Position numbers and translations under genes: made by a program. Shown here one piece after another: positions 2,454-38,240 of a stretch of DNA of 64,000 nt (position 1 is its first letter; every line of letters starts with the position of its first letter). This DNA comes from Escherichia phage mistaenkt: the sequence record MN850587.1; one strand, given 5' to 3'. A model generated the notes under the pieces. It made no database searches. It was not told the DNA's origin and saw only the letters and a list, made by a program, of their open reading frames with translations.

Positions 2454-4688
2454 TTAAACTCCGCAACCTTCACAGTAAGCGTCTTGGAGTGCTGACTTAC
2501 CAACACCAATACGACTGTTAAGGTAGTACATAGTTTTCATCCCAACTGAGTTAGCATAAATCATGTACTTCAAAGCTTGCTCTAATGATACCTTTTTCGA
2601 TTTTGAATAGTCAACATAGAAATCTGAAGAGATAGCTTGACCAGTGAATTTTTGAACAATTGCATAGCAATCAATCATATCAAAGGTGTCAATATCCCAA
2701 GCAATTTCATAGACATACTTCAACTCTTCGTAATCTGGAACGATAAATAAAACGTTACCAGTTGCTGACTTCTTGGTTAAGATGAAGTCACGAATTGGGT
2801 ACAAACCATTTGTCGTATTAGTTGCCAGTGAAGAACTCTCATTAGGCATGTAAGCCTCAAGTACAGAGTTTCTGATACCACCATTTGCTTTAATACGGTC
2901 TGCTAAGTCATCCCAATCATAACGAAGTTTTGCATCGTGTTTTGTATCAATCTTCCTGTTAGCTGTCTTCGGAGGAACCCAACCTTCAGGATACTTGGTG
3001 AACTTCATATATTCAGGTACACCACGCTCTTTTGCAAGTCTTAGTGAAGCCTCATGCAGATAGTAAGAGTGCATCTCTGCAAGTTCATGTAGCTTCGTTT
3101 TACCTGCTCTTGAAGAATAGTTCACGTAGTTCTTCGCAAGGTAGTGAGCCACATTCGTAAGGCCAATCCCAACAGAACGACGTTTCTGAACGTGGTTACG
3201 CATTGACGGATACGGATAGTCCATAAGGTCAATAACGGAGTCAACCATTGCAAGAGCATAATAAGCAACGTCAGCGTATTCATCTTCTGTGATTCTCCCT
3301 GCTACCAGACTAGCTAAGAAGCAAAGAGCAACTTCACCATCTTCTTTAGGTGCTGTGTAACTGTAAAGGTCACGTTCATCTTCAAACCCGTAAACTGGCA
3401 GTATAATTTCCATGCACAAGTTAGACATTTTCAAAGCTTCTTTAAACGGTGTGTGTGTGTTCGCATTGTTCGTAAAGAACGGATACACACGACCTGTGGC
3501 ATAACGTTGCTGGATGAACAGCTTGGCAACTTCACGAGCCTTAACACGTTTATGCTTAACACCTGAATGCACTGCGTGACCGACTGCCATAGCAAACTCA
3601 TCAGCAGATGCTGTGTAGAACATGTCATAAAGCTTTGGAGCGTCCTTGTAAGAGAACAGCAACCAATCTGTGTCATACTGTACACACTGCCAGAAATAGT
3701 CATTTGCACCAAATGAATAGTCCATCTCATTAATACGCTTCGAAGGAACCGTTGTAGGATGCTTCAAACGCAGTAAATCTTCAATCTGCGGGTCTAGGGC
3801 AGTATAGAAGTTGTTAGCTGAACCACCACGACTCTTCTGCTTATTGGCCTCTACAGCAGCACGTACAAGCTTGTAGTAAGGAAGCTTACCCATGTGTTCA
3901 ATGGTGTTTTGACGAATACCATCACCAATTGTACGGGTCTCCATAAGCATACCAATACCAGCTTGCTTGGTGGTCATATCATAAGCTACCTTAGTAGCAA
4001 TGCCAAGAGACTCAGCAGTGTCATTAGCCTTGATTAAGCAGCATGACGCATAACCTGACTTAGTAGCACGTAAACCATTCAGATAAGGCGTAGGGGCGTT
4101 AATCTTCAGGTCAGACAGGTAAGTGTACAGCTTGATAACATCTTCCAGTCTACGGTGCTTAGGTTGTCTCTCAAAGGCTTTCATAGCCATACCCATAAAC
4201 ATAAATTGTGGGGATTCAAACAGACGACCTGACTTGATATCTCGGATGCCATACTTGTCACGGAACTGTTTCAGTACTGCATAACCGTAAGAGATATCTT
4301 TTGAGTGAACAATGTGACCTTGTAAATAGTCAATCTCTTGTTCGGTGTAATCCATGTGTTCCCACAAACCCATTTGCTCCATCTTCATAACGAAGTTGAA
4401 CAGTTGAGGAACTTTTGTGAAACCACCAAAGGCTTCTTTGTAGATGATACCAAGGAGTAATCGACCAGCCATATCAGAGTACTCTTGAGTCTGCTTATCA
4501 ATACAAACGTCAATCATAGCTTGGTGCATCTCTTTGGTAGAGCAACCTTCATAAACACGCTTCATGGCTTCCATAGTTACTTCTGACCAAATGATTCCTC
4601 GTTTGTCAGCCCATGAAGCCCATTTGTTTAAACGTTCTGGTTCGAATGGCACGATTGTACCGTCAGATTTGCGAATGGTCTTAATCAT
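2454..4688 (-). CDS. nrdA: Ribonucleotide reductase class Ia large (alpha) subunit
   Basis: 744 aa; N-terminal ATP-cone (MIKTIRKSDGTIVPFEPERLNKW), overall RNR large-subunit character, operon with nrdB and glutaredoxin. Confidence 0.9.
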   Translation of the reverse strand: MIKTIRKSDGTIVPFEPERLNKWASWADKRGIIWSEVTMEAMKRVYEGCSTKEMHQAMIDVCIDKQTQEYSDMAGRLLLGIIYKEAFGGFTKVPQLFNFVMKMEQMGLWEHMDYTEQEIDYLQGHIVHSKDISYGYAVLKQFRDKYGIRDIKSGRLFESPQFMFMGMAMKAFERQPKHRRLEDVIKLYTYLSDLKINAPTPYLNGLRATKSGYASCCLIKANDTAESLGIATKVAYDMTTKQAGIGMLMETRTIGDGIRQNTIEHMGKLPYYKLVRAAVEANKQKSRGGSANNFYTALDPQIEDLLRLKHPTTVPSKRINEMDYSFGANDYFWQCVQYDTDWLLFSYKDAPKLYDMFYTASADEFAMAVGHAVHSGVKHKRVKAREVAKLFIQQRYATGRVYPFFTNNANTHTPFKEALKMSNLCMEIILPVYGFEDERDLYSYTAPKEDGEVALCFLASLVAGRITEDEYADVAYYALAMVDSVIDLMDYPYPSMRNHVQKRRSVGIGLTNVAHYLAKNYVNYSSRAGKTKLHELAEMHSYYLHEASLRLAKERGVPEYMKFTKYPEGWVPPKTANRKIDTKHDAKLRYDWDDLADRIKANGGIRNSVLEAYMPNESSSLATNTTNGLYPIRDFILTKKSATGNVLFIVPDYEELKYVYEIAWDIDTFDMIDCYAIVQKFTGQAISSDFYVDYSKSKKVSLEQALKYMIYANSVGMKTMYYLNSRIGVGKSALQDAYCEGCGV

Positions 4689-33453: not shown

Positions 33454-33454
<1 letters not shown>

Positions 33455-35694
33455 TATTCTTCCTCTGGGTAACTTGAGTTAAGAAGGATATCTTCTTGGT
33501 TCTTGTCCATGATATCAACCGTCTTAGTAGCAATCTGCTTACCATCCAGATTGAATGAAACATTCAGAGTCTGTCTAGTCTGCATAGGGAAACCAGAAGG
33601 TGTCATCATCATTGGGGTTTGGTTGAACTTCGTTGCAAAGTTATTTAAAGACTCTGACAAGTTGTTCATGATAATATCCCAATTGGACATTCCATTATCA
33701 ACAAAGCTGCGATTGCCTTGAGCATCTACAGAATATTGTGCAAACTGTAGCTGTCCATTCTGGTCAAAGAACATTGGACGTTTCGGGTTGGTAATGCTTG
33801 CTACGGCATCTTCAAAAGGTTTTGGAAGGTTTACTTCACTGAATCTACCATTATTCTTTCTGTCTGTAGAGCCAGATAGCATTAATGATGAACCAACTGT
33901 ACCAAGAGCCATTCTTGTTGCTGATACTCCTGCAACACCTGCTGCTTCAGATGCGGCTGCTGCACCACCTAAACCAAACTTCTTCATGATTTTTGCAAAG
34001 ATACCTTCTTCAAAGATACTCTTGACAAATGCTACAGTACCGCCAAAGATTTTTGCAACCTTCGTGATAGCGGCAATTGCAACACCAATCATAGCAAAGG
34101 TTGAAACTAGTTCAGCAGAATCCTTGATAAGTTTCTGTTGACTTGCATCCAAATCCTTGTACCATGCCATTGCAGAGTAATATAGTGAAGATGTTCTATA
34201 CATGATATCTGTTACGAAGTCAAGTAAGTTACCAGCACCTTTTAACAGGTAACCAATCACTGTACCGAGTGCTTCAGCAGTACCCATAGAACCTTGTAAG
34301 AACATTGCAATGGATTGTGAAAGCTGTGAAATACCGTCGCTAGAGTTGTTAAACAATGCAACTAACATGTTATCCCACATAGACTTTGCTTGACCCATTG
34401 AGGTAGCTGTCTGCTTAGATACGGCATTCATACCACCTGCTGCCTGTACCAACTCAGCCATCTTTTCAGATACCTTTGGAAGTACATCTTCAGCAAGGAG
34501 TTTACCGTCCTTCATCATCTTATCAAGTTCTTGTGGTGTCTTACCGATAGCGTCAGCAAATAGCTGTACAGCACCTGCCAAACGGTCACCTAACTGACCA
34601 CGGAGTTCTTCAGCCTGAATCTTACCCTTAGAAGCCATCTGCTGGAAAGCAACCATGATACCTTTCAGGTCTTCGTCTGTTGCACCCCTGATACGGGAGA
34701 ACATCGCAGCGTTCTTATAGAACTCCTGAGTTCCTTGGAATCCAAGAGCAGGTTGAGCACCAGCAGCAAAGTTTGCGTATTGCTTCATGGTCGCTGTGTA
34801 GTTCTGTCCAATCTGATGAGCGAACGATGCAGCGAACATTCTAGCTTGCTGTGTATCTGCTCCGAAGATAGCTGTTGAGGCTAACTGTGCAGACTGTCTT
34901 TTAACACCTGCATCAATTGTCTTCTGAGCCAATTCTAAGGCTGCATAAGCTGAAACAAAACCACCAATCATCTGACGTAGAGATGAGTTAGCTCTTTCCT
35001 GAAGCCAAGCTGATTCTCTGACTGACTTGAGTCTAGCATTTTCTGCAATAACCCAACGCTTGGTAACGTCAATGAGCTTCTTGACTTCCATCTCATATTC
35101 ACCGACTTTACCAGTTCCCTTATATTTGTTATAAAGACCTTGCAGGTTTCCTCTGAAGGAAGCTGCCATTTGGTTACCTTGTCCACCAATAGTTTCAAGG
35201 CGACGTGTCAGACCAGAATAGAAGTTGTTGTTAAACATTCTTTCCATCTGTCTCTGAGCAATATCAGGTCTTGGAGGTCTTGGGTTACCACTTCCACCAG
35301 TAGGAGGGAAACCAGTACCACCCTTTCTACCACCACGAACAGTGACTTTTCCATCAACTTTCATAGCGTCTCTTAAAGCTTTATTAATCTCCTTGGCAGT
35401 TTTTCTACCTTGAGTTTCCAGTCTTTTAAGAGATTTTACACCTTGTGAATCAAGGTTAAGGGAGTTGTTGAGTGCTTTATTGATTCTGCCCGAAGCAGTC
35501 TGAGCGTTTTTTACAATTCTGTTTAATGCTTCTTGTGAAGACTTATTAGGTTTCACGTCAAAGGCTTTGTTAATATTACGTTCGATTCGTTGAGCAGACT
35601 GCATAGCCATCTTTTCAACTCTCTGCAAACCTTTAACAACCTTTTCACTGAAACCCAACTCCACAATAAAGCTATCAACTGTATATTGTGCCAT
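33454..35694 (-). CDS. Tail tape measure protein
   Basis: 746 aa, alpha-helical/coiled-coil N-terminal half and Gly/Ala-rich hydrophobic segments; sits after the chaperone pair. Confidence 0.75.
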
Positions 35695-35933
35695 TAAATT
35701 TTACCTGCCCTTCTAAGTTCGTTATAAGCAATTTCTTCTTTGTATGACCTCTGGATTTCTAAATACTGTCGCAGAGATAATAAATCAGAGAAAGTCATTG
35801 AGAAGAGTTGGTCGAGTGTTTCTTTACACCCTTCCATACCGTAAATAGCAAGCACAAATTTCATCTCATCTGCTTCTTCATAAGTTGCTGCTACAGCCCC
35901 ATCAGTCAATGGGGTCTGCATAGCACTACTCAT
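35694..35933 (-). CDS. Tail assembly chaperone, downstream frame (T-like part of a G/GT-type pair)
   Basis: 79-aa ORF in the -1 frame relative to the upstream chaperone ORF; reachable by -1 slip at 35972-35978 with no intervening stop. Confidence 0.5.
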   Translation of the reverse strand: MSSAMQTPLTDGAVAATYEEADEMKFVLAIYGMEGCKETLDQLFSMTFSDLLSLRQYLEIQRSYKEEIAYNELRRAGKI

Positions 35934-35935
35934 GC

Positions 35936-36346
35936 TTACTGAGAAGTTAGGCTTTTGAAAATGCTTGCTTCGAAAAAACTTCCGAAATTAGTCTCCAGAG
36001 CAAATGCTAAGAAGTCAATAAATTCACCGTAGTTTGCTTGGAAGTATTTATCTACGTTTAGAGGGAAGTCATCTACAGTTGCACCTTGGAATAACAGAGC
36101 AGCCATTGAATCAATATCGAGTTCATCAATACGGTCAAAGCAAGCCTCTACTAATTCTTTAAAAGGCACTGCTGTTACACTTTCTTCACCATCTTTCTGC
36201 TCTTTCCCAGATAAACTTGAAAACATCTGAGCAATTGTCGGTACAACAACTTTACCAAGTTTCATCGACATTTTAATACCATCTCTTGCACCTAGCAGGA
36301 CAATATTCACTTTCTTACCATTAATAATTTTTGATTCTGTCTTCAT
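35936..36346 (-). CDS. Tail assembly chaperone (G-like)
   Basis: 136 aa, between tail tube and tape measure; contains slippery heptamer near its 3' end. Confidence 0.55.
   Translation of the reverse strand: MKTESKIINGKKVNIVLLGARDGIKMSMKLGKVVVPTIAQMFSSLSGKEQKDGEESVTAVPFKELVEACFDRIDELDIDSMAALLFQGATVDDFPLNVDKYFQANYGEFIDFLAFALETNFGSFFEASIFKSLTSQ
35972..35978 (-). other. Candidate -1 programmed ribosomal frameshift site (T TTT TTC in frame as agT-TTT-TTC)
   Basis: Heptamer read directly; -1 frame continues without stop into ORF 35694-35933. Confidence 0.5.
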
Positions 36347-36379
36347 TGTGATTCCTTAAATTTCTTAGGTTCTATAAAC

Positions 36380-36411
36380 GAAAAAAGGGAAGACCTTTTA
36401 CAGTCTCCCCC
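36380..36411 (-). terminator. Terminator-like hairpin downstream of the tail tube gene
   Basis: GGGGGAGAC...GTCTTCCC imperfect stem followed on minus strand by TTTTTTCG. Confidence 0.4.
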
Positions 36412-36425
36412 TTATTAGGATGTTC

Positions 36426-36872
36426 TTAAACACTTGACGCAGGAATCGTAGAAGTGTAGTCTAGCTTCTCACAACCAAAAATCCAAGTTTTAGAGTTCTG
36501 GTCACGACCAAGTTCAATCTGTGGCAGTTCCTGCAACCATGCGTTAATACCAGTTGCCAGAACAGAACCAGATGGGTCGTAGATTACGAAGTTAGAAGAG
36601 ATATCTTCTTCAAGTTCCATGTCATCTTGTTTAGCTTGAATCGCAGAAAGCATCTGGTTAGAGAGTGAAGTCTGCATTAGCTCAATCTCAATAGTACCTG
36701 TCTTGTCTGCGTTTCTTGTCAGAGCTACCTGACCACCTGCACCAACAACTGGTGTAACAAGTGGAGAAGTTCTCTGTAGACGTAAGAATGAATCTGGGGC
36801 AAAGCCTTCGATGGCAATACCATTCCAGCTACACACAACGTCTTTAGGGGAATATTGCTGATACATAGCCAT
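36426..36872 (-). CDS. Tail tube protein
   Basis: 148 aa, immediately downstream of the sheath gene; position-based. Confidence 0.55.
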   Translation of the reverse strand: MAMYQQYSPKDVVCSWNGIAIEGFAPDSFLRLQRTSPLVTPVVGAGGQVALTRNADKTGTIEIELMQTSLSNQMLSAIQAKQDDMELEEDISSNFVIYDPSGSVLATGINAWLQELPQIELGRDQNSKTWIFGCEKLDYTSTIPASSV

Positions 36873-36887
36873 TCCAATTTACCTCTA

Positions 36888-38240
36888 TTATTCGTAAGCC
36901 ACTGTACCTTTCAAGTCAACATCCAAGATAGCACCTGCTAAGATACCTGCGAAGGTAACGTCTTTCAGGATACGAGCTTTCTTGTCTGCCAAAGCAACTT
37001 GAGAGGCTTTAGGAACATTAACTGTGTAAGATGACAGGAAGTTTCTGTTAACTGCTCTTTGCAGAGAGGTTTCAATGACCTGACGAATACGGGTAATACC
37101 AGTATCATCATAAGTAATCTTACCACCCTTCTGATTAATTAGCAAGTCTCTCAGAGAAGTTTTCAAGTCAGATTCTAACCAGTCAACACCACGGATGATA
37201 TCAATCCATTCACCACCAGAGGTGATACCTCTACGTACAACTGGAACACCGCCATCAAGGTCGATGAAGTTGCAGTGACGTACATCCAAAGCGGATTTCT
37301 GAATGCTTGTCAGAGGTCTCTGATTAGCTGGCTGAAGAGATGCTTCAATACCAGTCAACTGAGCGTTACCCCAAGCAATTGAACCTGCATCATACGGAGC
37401 ACCATAAGCAATGTAAGCCATTTCTGGGTAGTCATAGCTGGCAGAGTGATGCCACAAGCAAACTGTACGAGTGTACATGCTCTTAGCAAGCTGTGCAGGA
37501 ACATCAGAAGCTGATGCCAGTTCGGTTCCTTGCAGTGCAGCTACATCAGAGTTAGCTGTGAAGAAAATCTTCTTACGAGCCTGAATCTCTGAAGCCATTG
37601 CCAAGACGAACTGTGCAGTTCTGTCTTCAGCAGAAATGAAGTACCAGTCAGTTGAGTACGTTTCAATTGCAGCCAGAGCACTTGCAGCAGTATCAGCAGT
37701 TGTACCAGCGATTGACACAGAACTTGTTGTTGATGTAACTTTTACGAAGTCATTGTCACCAGCTTTTGTAACAATCATGGTTGCAGAGCTACCAGTACCT
37801 GTTACGTTGATATTAACATCATCTTTGATTGTTGGGTCAGCTTCAATCTGGCCTTTAAACTGCGTCAGGACAATCAGAGCAGTGTCATCAGCTTGAGCAG
37901 TGTGTTGGTATGGCTGAGAAACCCCACCACCTACAGCAATCGTCAGAGAGTAATCTGTGCTTTCAGTTACTTCGTCTGGGATTGAGACTGTATACTGCAT
38001 AGCACGTCTACCAATATACAACTGAGTAACCTTTGGAGTTTGGCTCCATAGCTGTTTTGCTGCTTTATATGCAGCAGTGCTTTCATCGAAATCTTCAGCA
38101 ACTTCAGTCAGAGAAGTATAGCCACGAACCCTTTCTTCAAAGTTGTCTGTTGACGCTAAGAATAATGGTAGACCAAAACCTTCTCTCGTAGTTCCTGCGG
38201 TGTTCAATGTAATATCTACATTAACAATTGGATTCCACAT
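36888..38240 (-). CDS. Contractile tail sheath protein
   Basis: 450 aa, followed by a tube-sized gene, chaperone pair and tape measure; position-based. Confidence 0.6.
   Translation of the reverse strand: MWNPIVNVDITLNTAGTTREGFGLPLFLASTDNFEERVRGYTSLTEVAEDFDESTAAYKAAKQLWSQTPKVTQLYIGRRAMQYTVSIPDEVTESTDYSLTIAVGGGVSQPYQHTAQADDTALIVLTQFKGQIEADPTIKDDVNINVTGTGSSATMIVTKAGDNDFVKVTSTTSSVSIAGTTADTAASALAAIETYSTDWYFISAEDRTAQFVLAMASEIQARKKIFFTANSDVAALQGTELASASDVPAQLAKSMYTRTVCLWHHSASYDYPEMAYIAYGAPYDAGSIAWGNAQLTGIEASLQPANQRPLTSIQKSALDVRHCNFIDLDGGVPVVRRGITSGGEWIDIIRGVDWLESDLKTSLRDLLINQKGGKITYDDTGITRIRQVIETSLQRAVNRNFLSSYTVNVPKASQVALADKKARILKDVTFAGILAGAILDVDLKGTVAYE

What the first reader, a model, noticed from the sequence alone, without database searches (positions are those of the whole stretch)
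35694..36346. Candidate -1 programmed frameshift joining the two tail assembly chaperone ORFs
Between the tail tube and tape measure genes lie two small ORFs (136 aa and 79 aa). About 40 nt before the stop of the first, the minus strand reads agT-TTT-TTC-gaa: a canonical X-XXY-YYZ slippery heptamer (T TTT TTC, at 35972-35978) in the zero frame. A -1 slip there continues without any stop codon directly into the downstream ORF (...FF-RSKHFQKPNFSVS-MSSAMQTPLTDGAVAATYEE...), giving a G/GT-type fusion as in lambda-like and other tailed phages.
Basis: partly seen in the sequence, partly recalled or inferred. Interest (0 to 1): 0.5.

Follow-up and report, generated by a model that had tools for sequence, protein, structure and literature searches.

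The report
Known tail-chaperone −1 frameshift site
The two small genes between the tail tube and tape measure genes of this Felix-O1-like E. coli phage are almost certainly joined by the classic programmed −1 ribosomal frameshift of phage tail assembly chaperones, a real feature but one already annotated in sister phages.

Summary
On the minus strand, T TTT TTC (35978-35972) lies in X XXY YYZ register in the 136-aa ORF. It sits inside the 52-nt stretch where a −1 shift can reach the 79-aa ORF without meeting a stop. The window is a Suspvirus (Ounavirinae myophage). The upstream ORF is a Pfam Phage_TAC_15 tail assembly chaperone, flanked by sheath and tube genes upstream and the tape measure gene downstream.

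Comparison supports the interpretation strongly:
- All 79 distinct relatives with the S/C-F-F motif (22 clusters, down to about 21% identity) encode it as NNT TTT TTY, with an open −1 frame of 69-119 codons.
- Synonymous variation stops at the heptamer.
- The downstream ORF's ATG has no Shine-Dalgarno sequence and is lost in several relatives, while −1-frame residues upstream of it stay conserved.

I found no stimulatory RNA structure.

The same site is already annotated as ribosomal slippage in Moogle and Michonne, as a joined CDS in Mushroom, and is mentioned in the Moogle genome paper. It is therefore already known; only the Suspvirus records lack the join.

Two loose ends remain. One metagenomic relative has the T6 run out of register. 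Published Sf14 virion mass spectrometry detected the downstream part but not the upstream part.

The parts
36888..38240 (-). Tail sheath gene (450 aa)
   Evidence: Pfam DUF3383 5.3e-24 and phrog_205 tail sheath 7.8e-119. Annotated as tail sheath in SUSP2 RefSeq.
36426..36872 (-). Tail tube gene (148 aa)
   Evidence: Pfam KPP10_Orf10 5.3e-07 and phrog_280. The Sf14 homologue gp40 is the modelled tail tube (PMC11821841).
36384..36413 (-). Terminator-like hairpin plus T-run between the tube gene and the chaperone gene
   Evidence: One search finds a 12-pair stem followed by TTTCGTTT. The Michonne record annotates a terminator at the equivalent position. Function is inferred.
35936..36346 (-). Tail assembly chaperone, zero-frame product (136 aa, 15.0 kDa), the gpG analogue
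   Evidence: Pfam PF21822 Phage_TAC_15 1.4e-21 and phrog_1613 4e-46. Its start has a normal Shine-Dalgarno sequence, −6.1 kcal/mol.
35972..35978 (-). Slippery heptamer T TTT TTC in X XXY YYZ register (codons AGT TTT TTC = S123 F124 F125)
   Evidence: NNT TTT TTY is invariant in 79 distinct relatives forming 22 clusters.
35949..35981 (-). Nucleotide block AAGTTTTTTCGARGCAAGCATTTTCAAAARCCT, near-invariant across Ounavirinae; dual-coding zone
   Evidence: Alignment A2. Synonymous-site test: 8 of 11 single-codon columns here against 2 of 27 elsewhere, Fisher p=1.3e-4. No credible RNA structure.
35694..35972 (-). −1-frame extension (92 codons; base 35972 is read twice), the gpT-like segment; contains the nominal ORF2 (35933-35694)
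   Evidence: phrog_4963 4.1e-53 for ORF2. The predicted fusion, join(36346..35972, 35972..35694), is 217 aa and 24.4 kDa.
35931..35933 (-). ATG of nominal ORF2; probably not a required start codon
   Evidence: No Shine-Dalgarno pairing: +0.7 kcal/mol, against a median of −6.15 for 46 ORFs. It is ATA in L030 and absent in Kolesnikvirus and LPML1-type phages.
33454..35694 (-). Tail length tape measure protein gene (746 aa); its ATG overlaps the stop of the −1 frame (TAATG)
   Evidence: Pfam TMP_3 4.3e-17 and phrog_4036.

Best explanation
This is the tail assembly chaperone gene pair of a Suspvirus (a Felix-O1-like myophage).

Proposed mechanism:
1. Most ribosomes translate ORF1 to its TAA stop and make a 136-aa (15.0 kDa) chaperone, the analogue of lambda gpG.
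2. A minority slip when tRNA-Phe occupies both the P site (UUU) and the A site (UUC) on U UUU UUC. Both tRNAs move back one base and re-pair with UUU UUU.
3. Those ribosomes continue in the −1 frame through RSKHFQKPNFSVS into 'ORF2'. The result is a 217-aa (24.4 kDa) fusion, the analogue of gpGT.
4. By analogy with lambda, the shared N-terminal domain coats the tape measure protein and the −1-encoded C-terminal segment recruits the tail tube protein. The slip frequency would then fix the ratio of the two forms.

What is shown here: the sequence anatomy, the family assignment, the conservation of the slip site and of the −1 coding capacity, and the lack of an independent start signal.

What is inferred: that slippage occurs on the ribosome, how efficient it is, and what the two products do. 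No downstream stimulatory RNA structure seems to be involved.
For: - **Anatomy.** The heptamer is in register inside the only 52-nt shift window, and the −1 frame is open up to the tape measure gene's start.
- **Family and synteny.** ORF1 matches Pfam Phage_TAC_15 at 1.4e-21. The gene order is sheath, tube, chaperone, tape measure.
- **Conservation in named relatives.** The window and 43 relatives (Suspvirus, Felixounavirus, Mooglevirus, Kolesnikvirus, an LPML1-type phage, Vequintavirinae) all have TTTTTTC in register plus an open −1 frame.
- **Conservation in distant relatives.** 45 further metagenomic loci at 21-51% identity all have T TTT TTY, with 69-119 codons of −1 continuation.
- **Codon choice.** Across 79 distinct sequences in 22 clusters, the codon before Phe-Phe always ends in T (AGT 60, TCT 17, TGT 2), and the first Phe is always TTT. 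In the same ORFs, 0.40 of Ser codons end in T and 0.46 of Phe codons are TTT.
- **Synonymous sites.** Outside the slip region, 2 of 27 invariant-residue columns use a single codon. From S123 onward the count is 8 of 11 (Fisher p=1.3e-4).
- **No independent start needed.** ORF2's ATG has no Shine-Dalgarno sequence. It is ATA in L030. The first −1-frame ATG is only 37 or 56 codons from the end in Kolesnikvirus and the LPML1-type phage, yet residues upstream of those ATGs are conserved.
- **Selection on the −1 frame just after the slip.** A motif [RK][YFH][WFQR]xP recurs there. L072 keeps Y-W through TAT>TAC, which is silent in the −1 frame but changes Ile to Thr in the zero frame.
- **Motif efficiency.** U_UU.C is the second most frameshift-prone tetramer in E. 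coli, and UUN codons are among the most frameshift-prone in heptamers (PMC4066793).
- **Expression.** Peptides of the ORF2 homologue gp42 were detected by mass spectrometry in Sf14 particles (PMC11821841), so the −1 frame is expressed.
Against: - There is no direct protein evidence for a fusion in this phage or in any Ounavirinae member I could find.
- In Sf14, gp42 (the downstream part) was detected but gp41 (the upstream part) was not. gp41 nevertheless offers four good tryptic peptides that the fusion shares. A fusion-only source does not predict this.
- No stimulatory stem-loop or pseudoknot lies within reach of the slip site. The consensus fold is −1.9 kcal/mol with no covariation, and single-sequence z-scores are near 0.
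- One relative (L121) keeps the T6 run and the −1 ORF but has the run one base out of register (TCT GTT TTT TCA), which breaks the canonical heptamer.
- The search that recovered the 45 distant loci selected for Phe-Phe at the protein level, so only the codon choices count as independent evidence.
Confidence: 0.85

Rival explanations
1. There is no recoding. ORF2 is a separate small gene translated from its own ATG (35933), probably by termination-reinitiation, because ORF1's TAA lies 2 nt upstream. On this view the heptamer is only the footprint of a conserved Ser-Phe-Phe protein motif.
For: - ORF2 has an ATG immediately after ORF1's stop in Suspvirus and most Felixounavirus genomes.
- SUSP1/SUSP2 RefSeq, CHB7 and Sf14 annotate two separate CDSs.
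- Sf14 virion mass spectrometry detected gp42 but not gp41.
Against: - The ATG has no Shine-Dalgarno pairing: +0.7 kcal/mol, weaker than all 46 ORFs of at least 100 aa on this strand.
- The ATG is ATA in L030. It is missing in Kolesnikvirus and the LPML1-type phage, where conserved coding sequence extends about 40 codons upstream of any ATG.
- A protein motif does not explain why the Ser/Cys codon always ends in T, or why the first Phe is always TTT in 79 of 79 sequences.
- −1-frame residues between the slip site and the ATG are conserved.
Confidence: 0.06
2. The same fusion protein is made, but by transcriptional slippage. RNA polymerase would add one extra U in the T6 run, giving a subpopulation of mRNAs in which ORF1 and ORF2 are in frame.
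For: - The slip site is a homopolymeric T6 run (T7-T8 in some relatives).
- In L121 the T6 run is kept although it is out of the canonical ribosomal register. Only a register-independent mechanism would tolerate that fully.
- The protein product would be identical, so the conservation data cannot exclude this.
Against: - From general knowledge, efficient slippage by bacterial RNA polymerase needs runs of about 8-9 or more (Thermus dnaX A9, Shigella mxiE T9). T6 is short.
- Selection for slippage should lengthen the run, yet the second Phe is TTC in 71 of 79 sequences, which caps the run at six.
- Tail chaperone frameshifts elsewhere use non-homopolymeric heptamers such as lambda's G GGA AAG. 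L122 carries G GGA AAG 9 nt after its T-run.
Confidence: 0.06
3. It is a chance juxtaposition: a slippery-looking heptamer happens to lie near the end of a gene whose neighbour is in the −1 frame.
For: In-register heptamers are not rare (44 per 14,901 codons). The same scan found two other such juxtapositions in this window.
Against: The codon-level conservation holds across 22 sequence clusters. Treating clusters as independent, the expected frequency is about 0.18 per lineage. Synonymous-site suppression and the diagnostic genomic position also argue against chance.
Confidence: 0.01

Closest known systems
Tape measure chaperone frameshift annotated in Citrobacter phages Moogle and Michonne and Salmonella phage Mushroom (Ounavirinae)
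   Same: These are orthologous genes at about 76-79% protein identity. The heptamer and the 30-nt context are identical, the synteny is the same, and the joined CDS has the same length class, 212-213 aa against 217 aa here.
   Different: In those phages the frameshift is also only predicted. ORF1's stop lies 9 nt further downstream in the Moogle group. The closest Suspvirus records (SUSP1/2, CHB7) list two separate CDSs.
Phage lambda gpG/gpGT (Levin, Hendrix & Casjens 1993; Xu, Hendrix & Duda 2004, 2013, 2014)
   Same: The gene pair sits immediately upstream of the tape measure gene. A −1 shift near the end of the first ORF gives a short major product and a long minor product (summarised in PMC5009743). 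From memory, lambda also needs no strong RNA stimulator.
   Different: Lambda is a siphovirus with heptamer G GGA AAG, and its chaperone belongs to a different Pfam family. I found no detectable sequence similarity. Function and ratio were measured for lambda but not here.
Phage P2 gpE/gpE+E' (Christie et al. 2002; cited from memory, not retrieved here)
   Same: It is a contractile-tail phage with the chaperone pair between the tube and tape measure genes. The −1 shift occurs on a U6-type heptamer (T TTT TTG, as I recall).
   Different: The protein family is different and the last base of the heptamer differs. The P2 frameshift was demonstrated experimentally.
dnaX and IS911/IS3-type bacterial −1 frameshift signals
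   Same: An X XXY YYZ heptamer and tandem tRNA slippage.
   Different: Those signals rely on an upstream Shine-Dalgarno-like element and/or a downstream hairpin or pseudoknot. Neither is conserved or predicted here.

Membership tests
Phage tail assembly chaperone with programmed −1 frameshift (G/GT type) | The gene pair lies between the major tail (tube) gene and the tape measure gene | tested here: met
   The order sheath, tube, ORF1, ORF2, tape measure is shown by Pfam and PHROG assignments and by annotation of relatives.
Phage tail assembly chaperone with programmed −1 frameshift (G/GT type) | The upstream ORF is a recognisable tail assembly chaperone | tested here: met
   PF21822 Phage_TAC_15, 77.8 bits against a cut-off of 22, E=1.4e-21. 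phrog_1613 at 4e-46. No solved-structure relative was found by sequence. The fold was not modelled.
Phage tail assembly chaperone with programmed −1 frameshift (G/GT type) | The second reading frame overlaps the end of the first in the −1 frame and lacks its own translation start signals | tested here: met
   The −1 frame is open from 35987 to 35694. There is no Shine-Dalgarno sequence at ATG 35933, and that ATG is not conserved.
Phage tail assembly chaperone with programmed −1 frameshift (G/GT type) | A slippery heptamer X XXY YYZ lies in zero-frame register within the overlap | tested here: met
   T TTT TTC at 35978-35972 is the only such motif in the shift window.
Phage tail assembly chaperone with programmed −1 frameshift (G/GT type) | The slip site and the two-frame arrangement are conserved among diverged relatives | tested here: met
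   44 of 44 sequences, 45 of 45 distant loci and 22 of 22 clusters at codon level. Of three loci found without selecting for Phe-Phe, two conform and L121 has the T6 run out of register.
Phage tail assembly chaperone with programmed −1 frameshift (G/GT type) | Two proteins, short and fused, are made in vivo at a set ratio, and both are needed for tail assembly | not testable with these tools
   The evidence is indirect only. Peptides of the downstream frame were detected in Sf14 (PMC11821841). The database used there did not contain the fusion, so no junction peptide could have been found.
Phage tail assembly chaperone with programmed −1 frameshift (G/GT type) | The chaperones are absent from mature virions (lambda paradigm) | tested here: inconclusive
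   The chaperone is not mentioned as a virion component in the Bas63 cryo-EM paper. Sf14 particle mass spectrometry lists gp42 as detected and gp41 as not detected. The Mass spectrometry methods section describes taking an aliquot of about 1e11 PFU and TCA-precipitating it, and the phage stock preparation it describes uses centrifugation steps only.
Stimulator-dependent bacterial −1 frameshift signals (dnaX / IS3 / IS911 type) | A stable stem-loop or pseudoknot lies 5-9 nt downstream, and/or a Shine-Dalgarno-like element upstream | tested here: not met
   The alifold consensus is −1.9 kcal/mol with 0 covarying pairs. Folds of the downstream 47-66 nt give z-scores of 0 to +1.2. The upstream GGAG is not conserved in Kolesnikvirus. 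The only strong hairpin lies about 50 nt downstream and is lost in Felixounavirus.
Programmed transcriptional slippage | A homopolymeric A or T run long enough for RNA polymerase realignment (about 8-9 or more in bacteria, from general knowledge) | tested here: not met
   The run is T6 here and in 71 of 79 relatives. RNA-level indels cannot be tested with these tools.

The most novel reading that the evidence does not exclude
In the Phage_TAC_15 family the frameshift may work without any RNA structure and depend instead on the conserved sequence just after the slip site. That sequence is the invariant 27-nt block in Ounavirinae and the −1-frame [RK][YF]W.P motif in distant relatives. It could act as an mRNA or nascent-peptide stimulator. 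Separately, and unlike lambda gpGT, the −1-encoded segment may persist in virions, possibly after cleavage from the chaperone domain. That would explain why Sf14 particles yielded gp42 peptides but no gp41 peptides.
Probability: 0.1. Interest if true: 0.45.

Novelty: already known. Interest (0 to 1): 0.15.

Why it matters
For genome annotation, the two 'tail assembly chaperone' CDSs in the Suspvirus records (SUSP1, SUSP2, CHB7) and the 'putative tape measure chaperone' CDSs in Sf14 should carry an additional joined CDS with ribosomal slippage at T TTT TTC, as their relatives Moogle, Michonne and Mushroom already do.

For biology, the result adds nothing new in kind. It is one more instance of the conserved tail-chaperone frameshift.

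The modest added value is the family-wide picture. The N-[FY]-x-[SC]-F-F protein motif of Phage_TAC_15 is really the footprint of a U UUU UUY slip site, kept across very divergent phages. This can help automatic frameshift callers.

Tried and rejected
- **Stimulatory RNA structure.** I folded the window's downstream region, both a 126-nt stretch and shorter segments, and ran RNAalifold on 11 Ounavirinae sequences. Nothing lies within range of the slip site. The one strong hairpin (about 35921-35893) is about 50 nt downstream and is not conserved in Felixounavirus. Family-wide, the 60 nt downstream give a mean z-score of only −0.76; only some GC-rich distant loci fold strongly.
- **Upstream Shine-Dalgarno-like stimulator.** A GGAG lies 14 nt upstream in the window but is absent in Kolesnikvirus. 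Rejected.
- **Solved structures.** A sequence search of the PDB with the 217-aa fusion gave no hit at E≤10.
- **Literature.** A search for 'TTTTTTC' with 'frameshift' and 'tail assembly chaperone' found 0 papers. Xu et al. 2004 is not held in the library. The Bas63 essentiality paper mentions frameshifting only in a reference-list citation on T7 gene 10 and does not mention chaperones. The Bas63 structure paper mentions 'chaperone' only in its reference list.
- **Bias-free search for relatives.** The 19-sequence N-terminal alignment was too divergent for the locus finder. A 6-sequence version worked and gave three new loci.
- **Sf14 supplements.** They hold no per-peptide mass spectrometry table.
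- **Not attempted.** I did not run structure prediction or the large protein-database searches, because the Pfam and PHROG assignments were already decisive.
Full report
**What the window is.** The 1.5 kb around the finding is 98.1-98.6% identical to Escherichia phages EcSzw-2, SUSP1, SUSP2 and CHB7 (genus Suspvirus, subfamily Ounavirinae). It is about 87% identical to some 250 Felixounavirus and Mooglevirus genomes. These are Felix-O1-like contractile-tail phages. On the minus strand the gene order is as follows.

| Gene | Coordinates (−) | Size | Assignment |
|---|---|---|---|
| Tail sheath | 38240-36888 | 450 aa | DUF3383 / phrog_205 |
| Tail tube | 36872-36426 | 148 aa | KPP10_Orf10 / phrog_280 |
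| ORF1 | 36346-35936 | 136 aa | Pfam Phage_TAC_15, E=1.4e-21 |
| ORF2 | 35933-35694 | 79 aa | phrog_4963 'tail assembly chaperone' |
| Tape measure protein | 35694-33454 | 746 aa | TMP_3 / phrog_4036 |

**Checking the observation.** The minus strand reads ...GGA AGT TTT TTC GAA GCA... in ORF1's frame. T TTT TTC at 35978-35972 is therefore an X XXY YYZ heptamer in register. It starts 40 nt before the TAA at 35938-35936. The −1 frame has a TAA at 35990-35988 and is then open to 35694. A −1 shift can thus only be productive inside a 52-nt window, and the heptamer is the only in-register slippery motif there. The predicted fusion is 217 aa and 24.4 kDa, against 136 aa and 15.0 kDa for ORF1 alone.

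Taken alone, the motif is weak evidence. In-register heptamers occur 44 times in 14,901 minus-strand ORF codons, which gives roughly a 5% chance for a 17-codon window. The same scan found two other heptamer-plus-long-−1-frame cases in the window. One lies in a spurious nested ORF. The other sits at an ATGA-type gene overlap.

**Comparative evidence in named phages.** I examined the window and 43 loci from Suspvirus, Felixounavirus, Mooglevirus, Kolesnikvirus (44% protein identity), an LPML1-type phage, and the rV5-like Vequintavirinae (25-31% identity). All have TTTTTTC in register and an uninterrupted −1 frame ending at the tape measure gene's start.

ORF2's own ATG is dispensable:
- It is ATA in one Felixounavirus (L030).
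- In Kolesnikvirus the first −1-frame ATG is only 37 codons from the end. In the LPML1-type phage it is 56 codons from the end.
- The −1-frame protein is nevertheless conserved well upstream of those ATGs (TPLTDxAV..TYEEADEMKF against CPRTEAAVDEGYKPDEATKF).
- In the window, the ATG has no Shine-Dalgarno pairing at all. The duplex energy is +0.7 kcal/mol, against a median of −6.15 for 46 ORFs on the same strand. That is weaker than every one of them.

**Comparative evidence in distant relatives.** A wider search of viral metagenome contigs gave 45 more loci at 21-51% identity. All have T TTT TTY in register, followed by 69-119 open −1 codons. That search selected for Phe-Phe at the protein level, so the independent evidence is the codon choice.

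Across 79 distinct sequences in 22 clusters (50% identity or more), one search shows:
- The codon before Phe-Phe always ends in T (AGT 60, TCT 17, TGT 2). Both serine codon families are used, but only their T-ending members.
- The first Phe is always TTT.
- In the same ORFs, 0.40 of Ser codons end in T and 0.46 of Phe codons are TTT. That gives about 0.18 per lineage by chance.

Within Ounavirinae, columns with an invariant residue use a single codon in 2 of 27 cases before residue 122. From S123 onward the figure is 8 of 11 (Fisher p=1.3e-4). The other Phe codons of ORF1 vary freely.

Just after the slip site the −1 frame carries a recurring motif:
- KHFQKP in Ounavirinae
- RRFRRP in rV5-like phages
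- RYWxP in many metagenomic relatives

In L072 the Y-W pair is kept by TAT>TAC. That change is silent in the −1 frame but changes Ile to Thr in the zero frame. This shows selection on the −1 frame right at the slip site.

A search that did not select for Phe-Phe yielded three new loci. Two conform. The third, L121, keeps a T6 run and a 101-codon −1 ORF, but the run is one base out of register (TCT GTT TTT TCA). Only a U_UUU tetramer remains there. This is a real exception, an assembly error, or a hint of a register-independent mechanism.

**Mechanism.** The best reading is tandem −1 slippage of two tRNA-Phe on U UUU UUC.
- In E. coli, U_UU.C is the second most frameshift-prone tetramer. UUN codons are among the most frameshift-prone A-site codons, and all-pyrimidine heptamers do well (PMC4066793).
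- I found no stimulatory element. The RNAalifold consensus over 11 Ounavirinae sequences is −1.9 kcal/mol with no covariation. Folds of the downstream 47-66 nt have z-scores of 0 to +1.2.
- The one strong hairpin (about 35921-35893) is about 50 nt downstream and is lost in Felixounavirus.
- The near-invariant 33-nt block at 35981-35949 is more simply explained by dual coding. Every zero-frame third position is a −1-frame first position.
- The roles of the two products (the short form coating the tape measure protein, the long form also recruiting tube protein) are inferred from the lambda paradigm (PMC5009743).

**Rivals.**
- *Independent initiation of ORF2* is contradicted by the missing Shine-Dalgarno sequence, the non-conserved ATG and the codon-level conservation. 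It gains some support from Sf14 virion mass spectrometry, which lists gp42 (the stand-alone 75-aa ORF2 homologue) as detected and gp41 as not detected (PMC11821841). gp41 has four good tryptic peptides that the fusion shares.
- *Transcriptional slippage* at the T6 run would give the identical protein and would tolerate L121. However, T6 is short for bacterial RNA polymerase (general knowledge), and the run is capped at six in 71 of 79 sequences.
- *Chance* is excluded by the conservation data.

**Comparison with what is known.** This is the conserved tail assembly chaperone frameshift first described for lambda G/GT and generalised by Xu, Hendrix and Duda (2004). That paper is cited in PMC5009743 and PMC10885494 but was not retrievable here. 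P2 E/E+E' is the contractile-tail precedent, cited from memory.

The orthologous site has been annotated before. [quoted passage not shown] The closest Suspvirus records and Sf14 still list two separate CDSs, so the finding corrects annotation rather than discovering something.

**Verdict.** The feature is already known, so interest is low (0.15). The residual points of interest are the apparent lack of any RNA stimulator, the family-wide post-slip motif, the L121 exception and the odd Sf14 mass spectrometry asymmetry.

Noticed in passing
window 47417-53618 (−), especially 48347-48422 and 47500-47592: There is a cluster of 24 phage-encoded tRNA genes. It includes tRNA-Phe(GAA) and tRNA-Ser(GCU), which decode the slip-site codons AGU UUU UUC. 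A phage-supplied tRNA-Phe could in principle influence slippage efficiency.
   Followed up: no
window 36384-36413 (−): A terminator-like hairpin (12 pairs) with a T-run lies between the tail tube gene and the chaperone gene. The Michonne record annotates a terminator at the same place. It may lower transcription of the chaperone and tape measure genes relative to the sheath and tube genes.
   Followed up: partly
window ~35893-35921 (−), inside ORF2: A strong hairpin, ACCCC(A)UUGACUGA(U)GGGGC, lies about 50 nt downstream of the slip site. The closing A-U pair becomes G-C in the Moogle group, a compensatory change. The stem is lost in Felixounavirus. It is too far from the heptamer to be a classical stimulator, and its purpose is unknown.
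   Followed up: partly
window 1101 (−), near the end of ORF 2144-1071, upstream of ORF 1071-829: A second in-register heptamer, T TTA AAC, lies 28 nt before a stop, and the −1 frame continues into the next 80-aa ORF. This is probably chance, because ATGA-type gene overlaps put the downstream gene in the −1 frame. A third hit, TTTAAAG at 3446, lies in a spurious ORF nested in the 744-aa gene 4688-2454.
   Followed up: no
L121:1827-2132 (IMGVR_UViG_3300027082_000009): This metagenomic relative of the chaperone has its T6 run shifted one base out of the canonical register (TCT GTT TTT TCA) but still has a 101-codon −1 ORF with the usual post-slip motif (HRRYRR). It is a natural exception, a tetramer-only slip site, or an assembly error.
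   Followed up: partly
L122:1848-1863 (IMGVR_UViG_3300025655_000030): This relative carries T TTT TTT followed 9 nt later by the lambda-type heptamer G GGA AAG. Both are in register and both lead into the same −1 ORF.
   Followed up: no
L091:427-1064 (Shigella phage Sf14, NC_042075.1): Published particle mass spectrometry lists the ORF2 homologue gp42 as detected and the ORF1 homologue gp41 as not detected (PMC11821841, Table 1). The search database held the two as separate proteins and not as a fusion. The asymmetry is unexplained, since gp41 has four good tryptic peptides.
   Followed up: partly
L008:1-672 (Erwinia phage phiEa104, NC_015292.1): The tail sheath gene is annotated as two adjacent CDSs in this record (35347-36114 and 36119-36706), although it is one gene in relatives. 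This is probably a sequencing frameshift or an annotation split.
   Followed up: no
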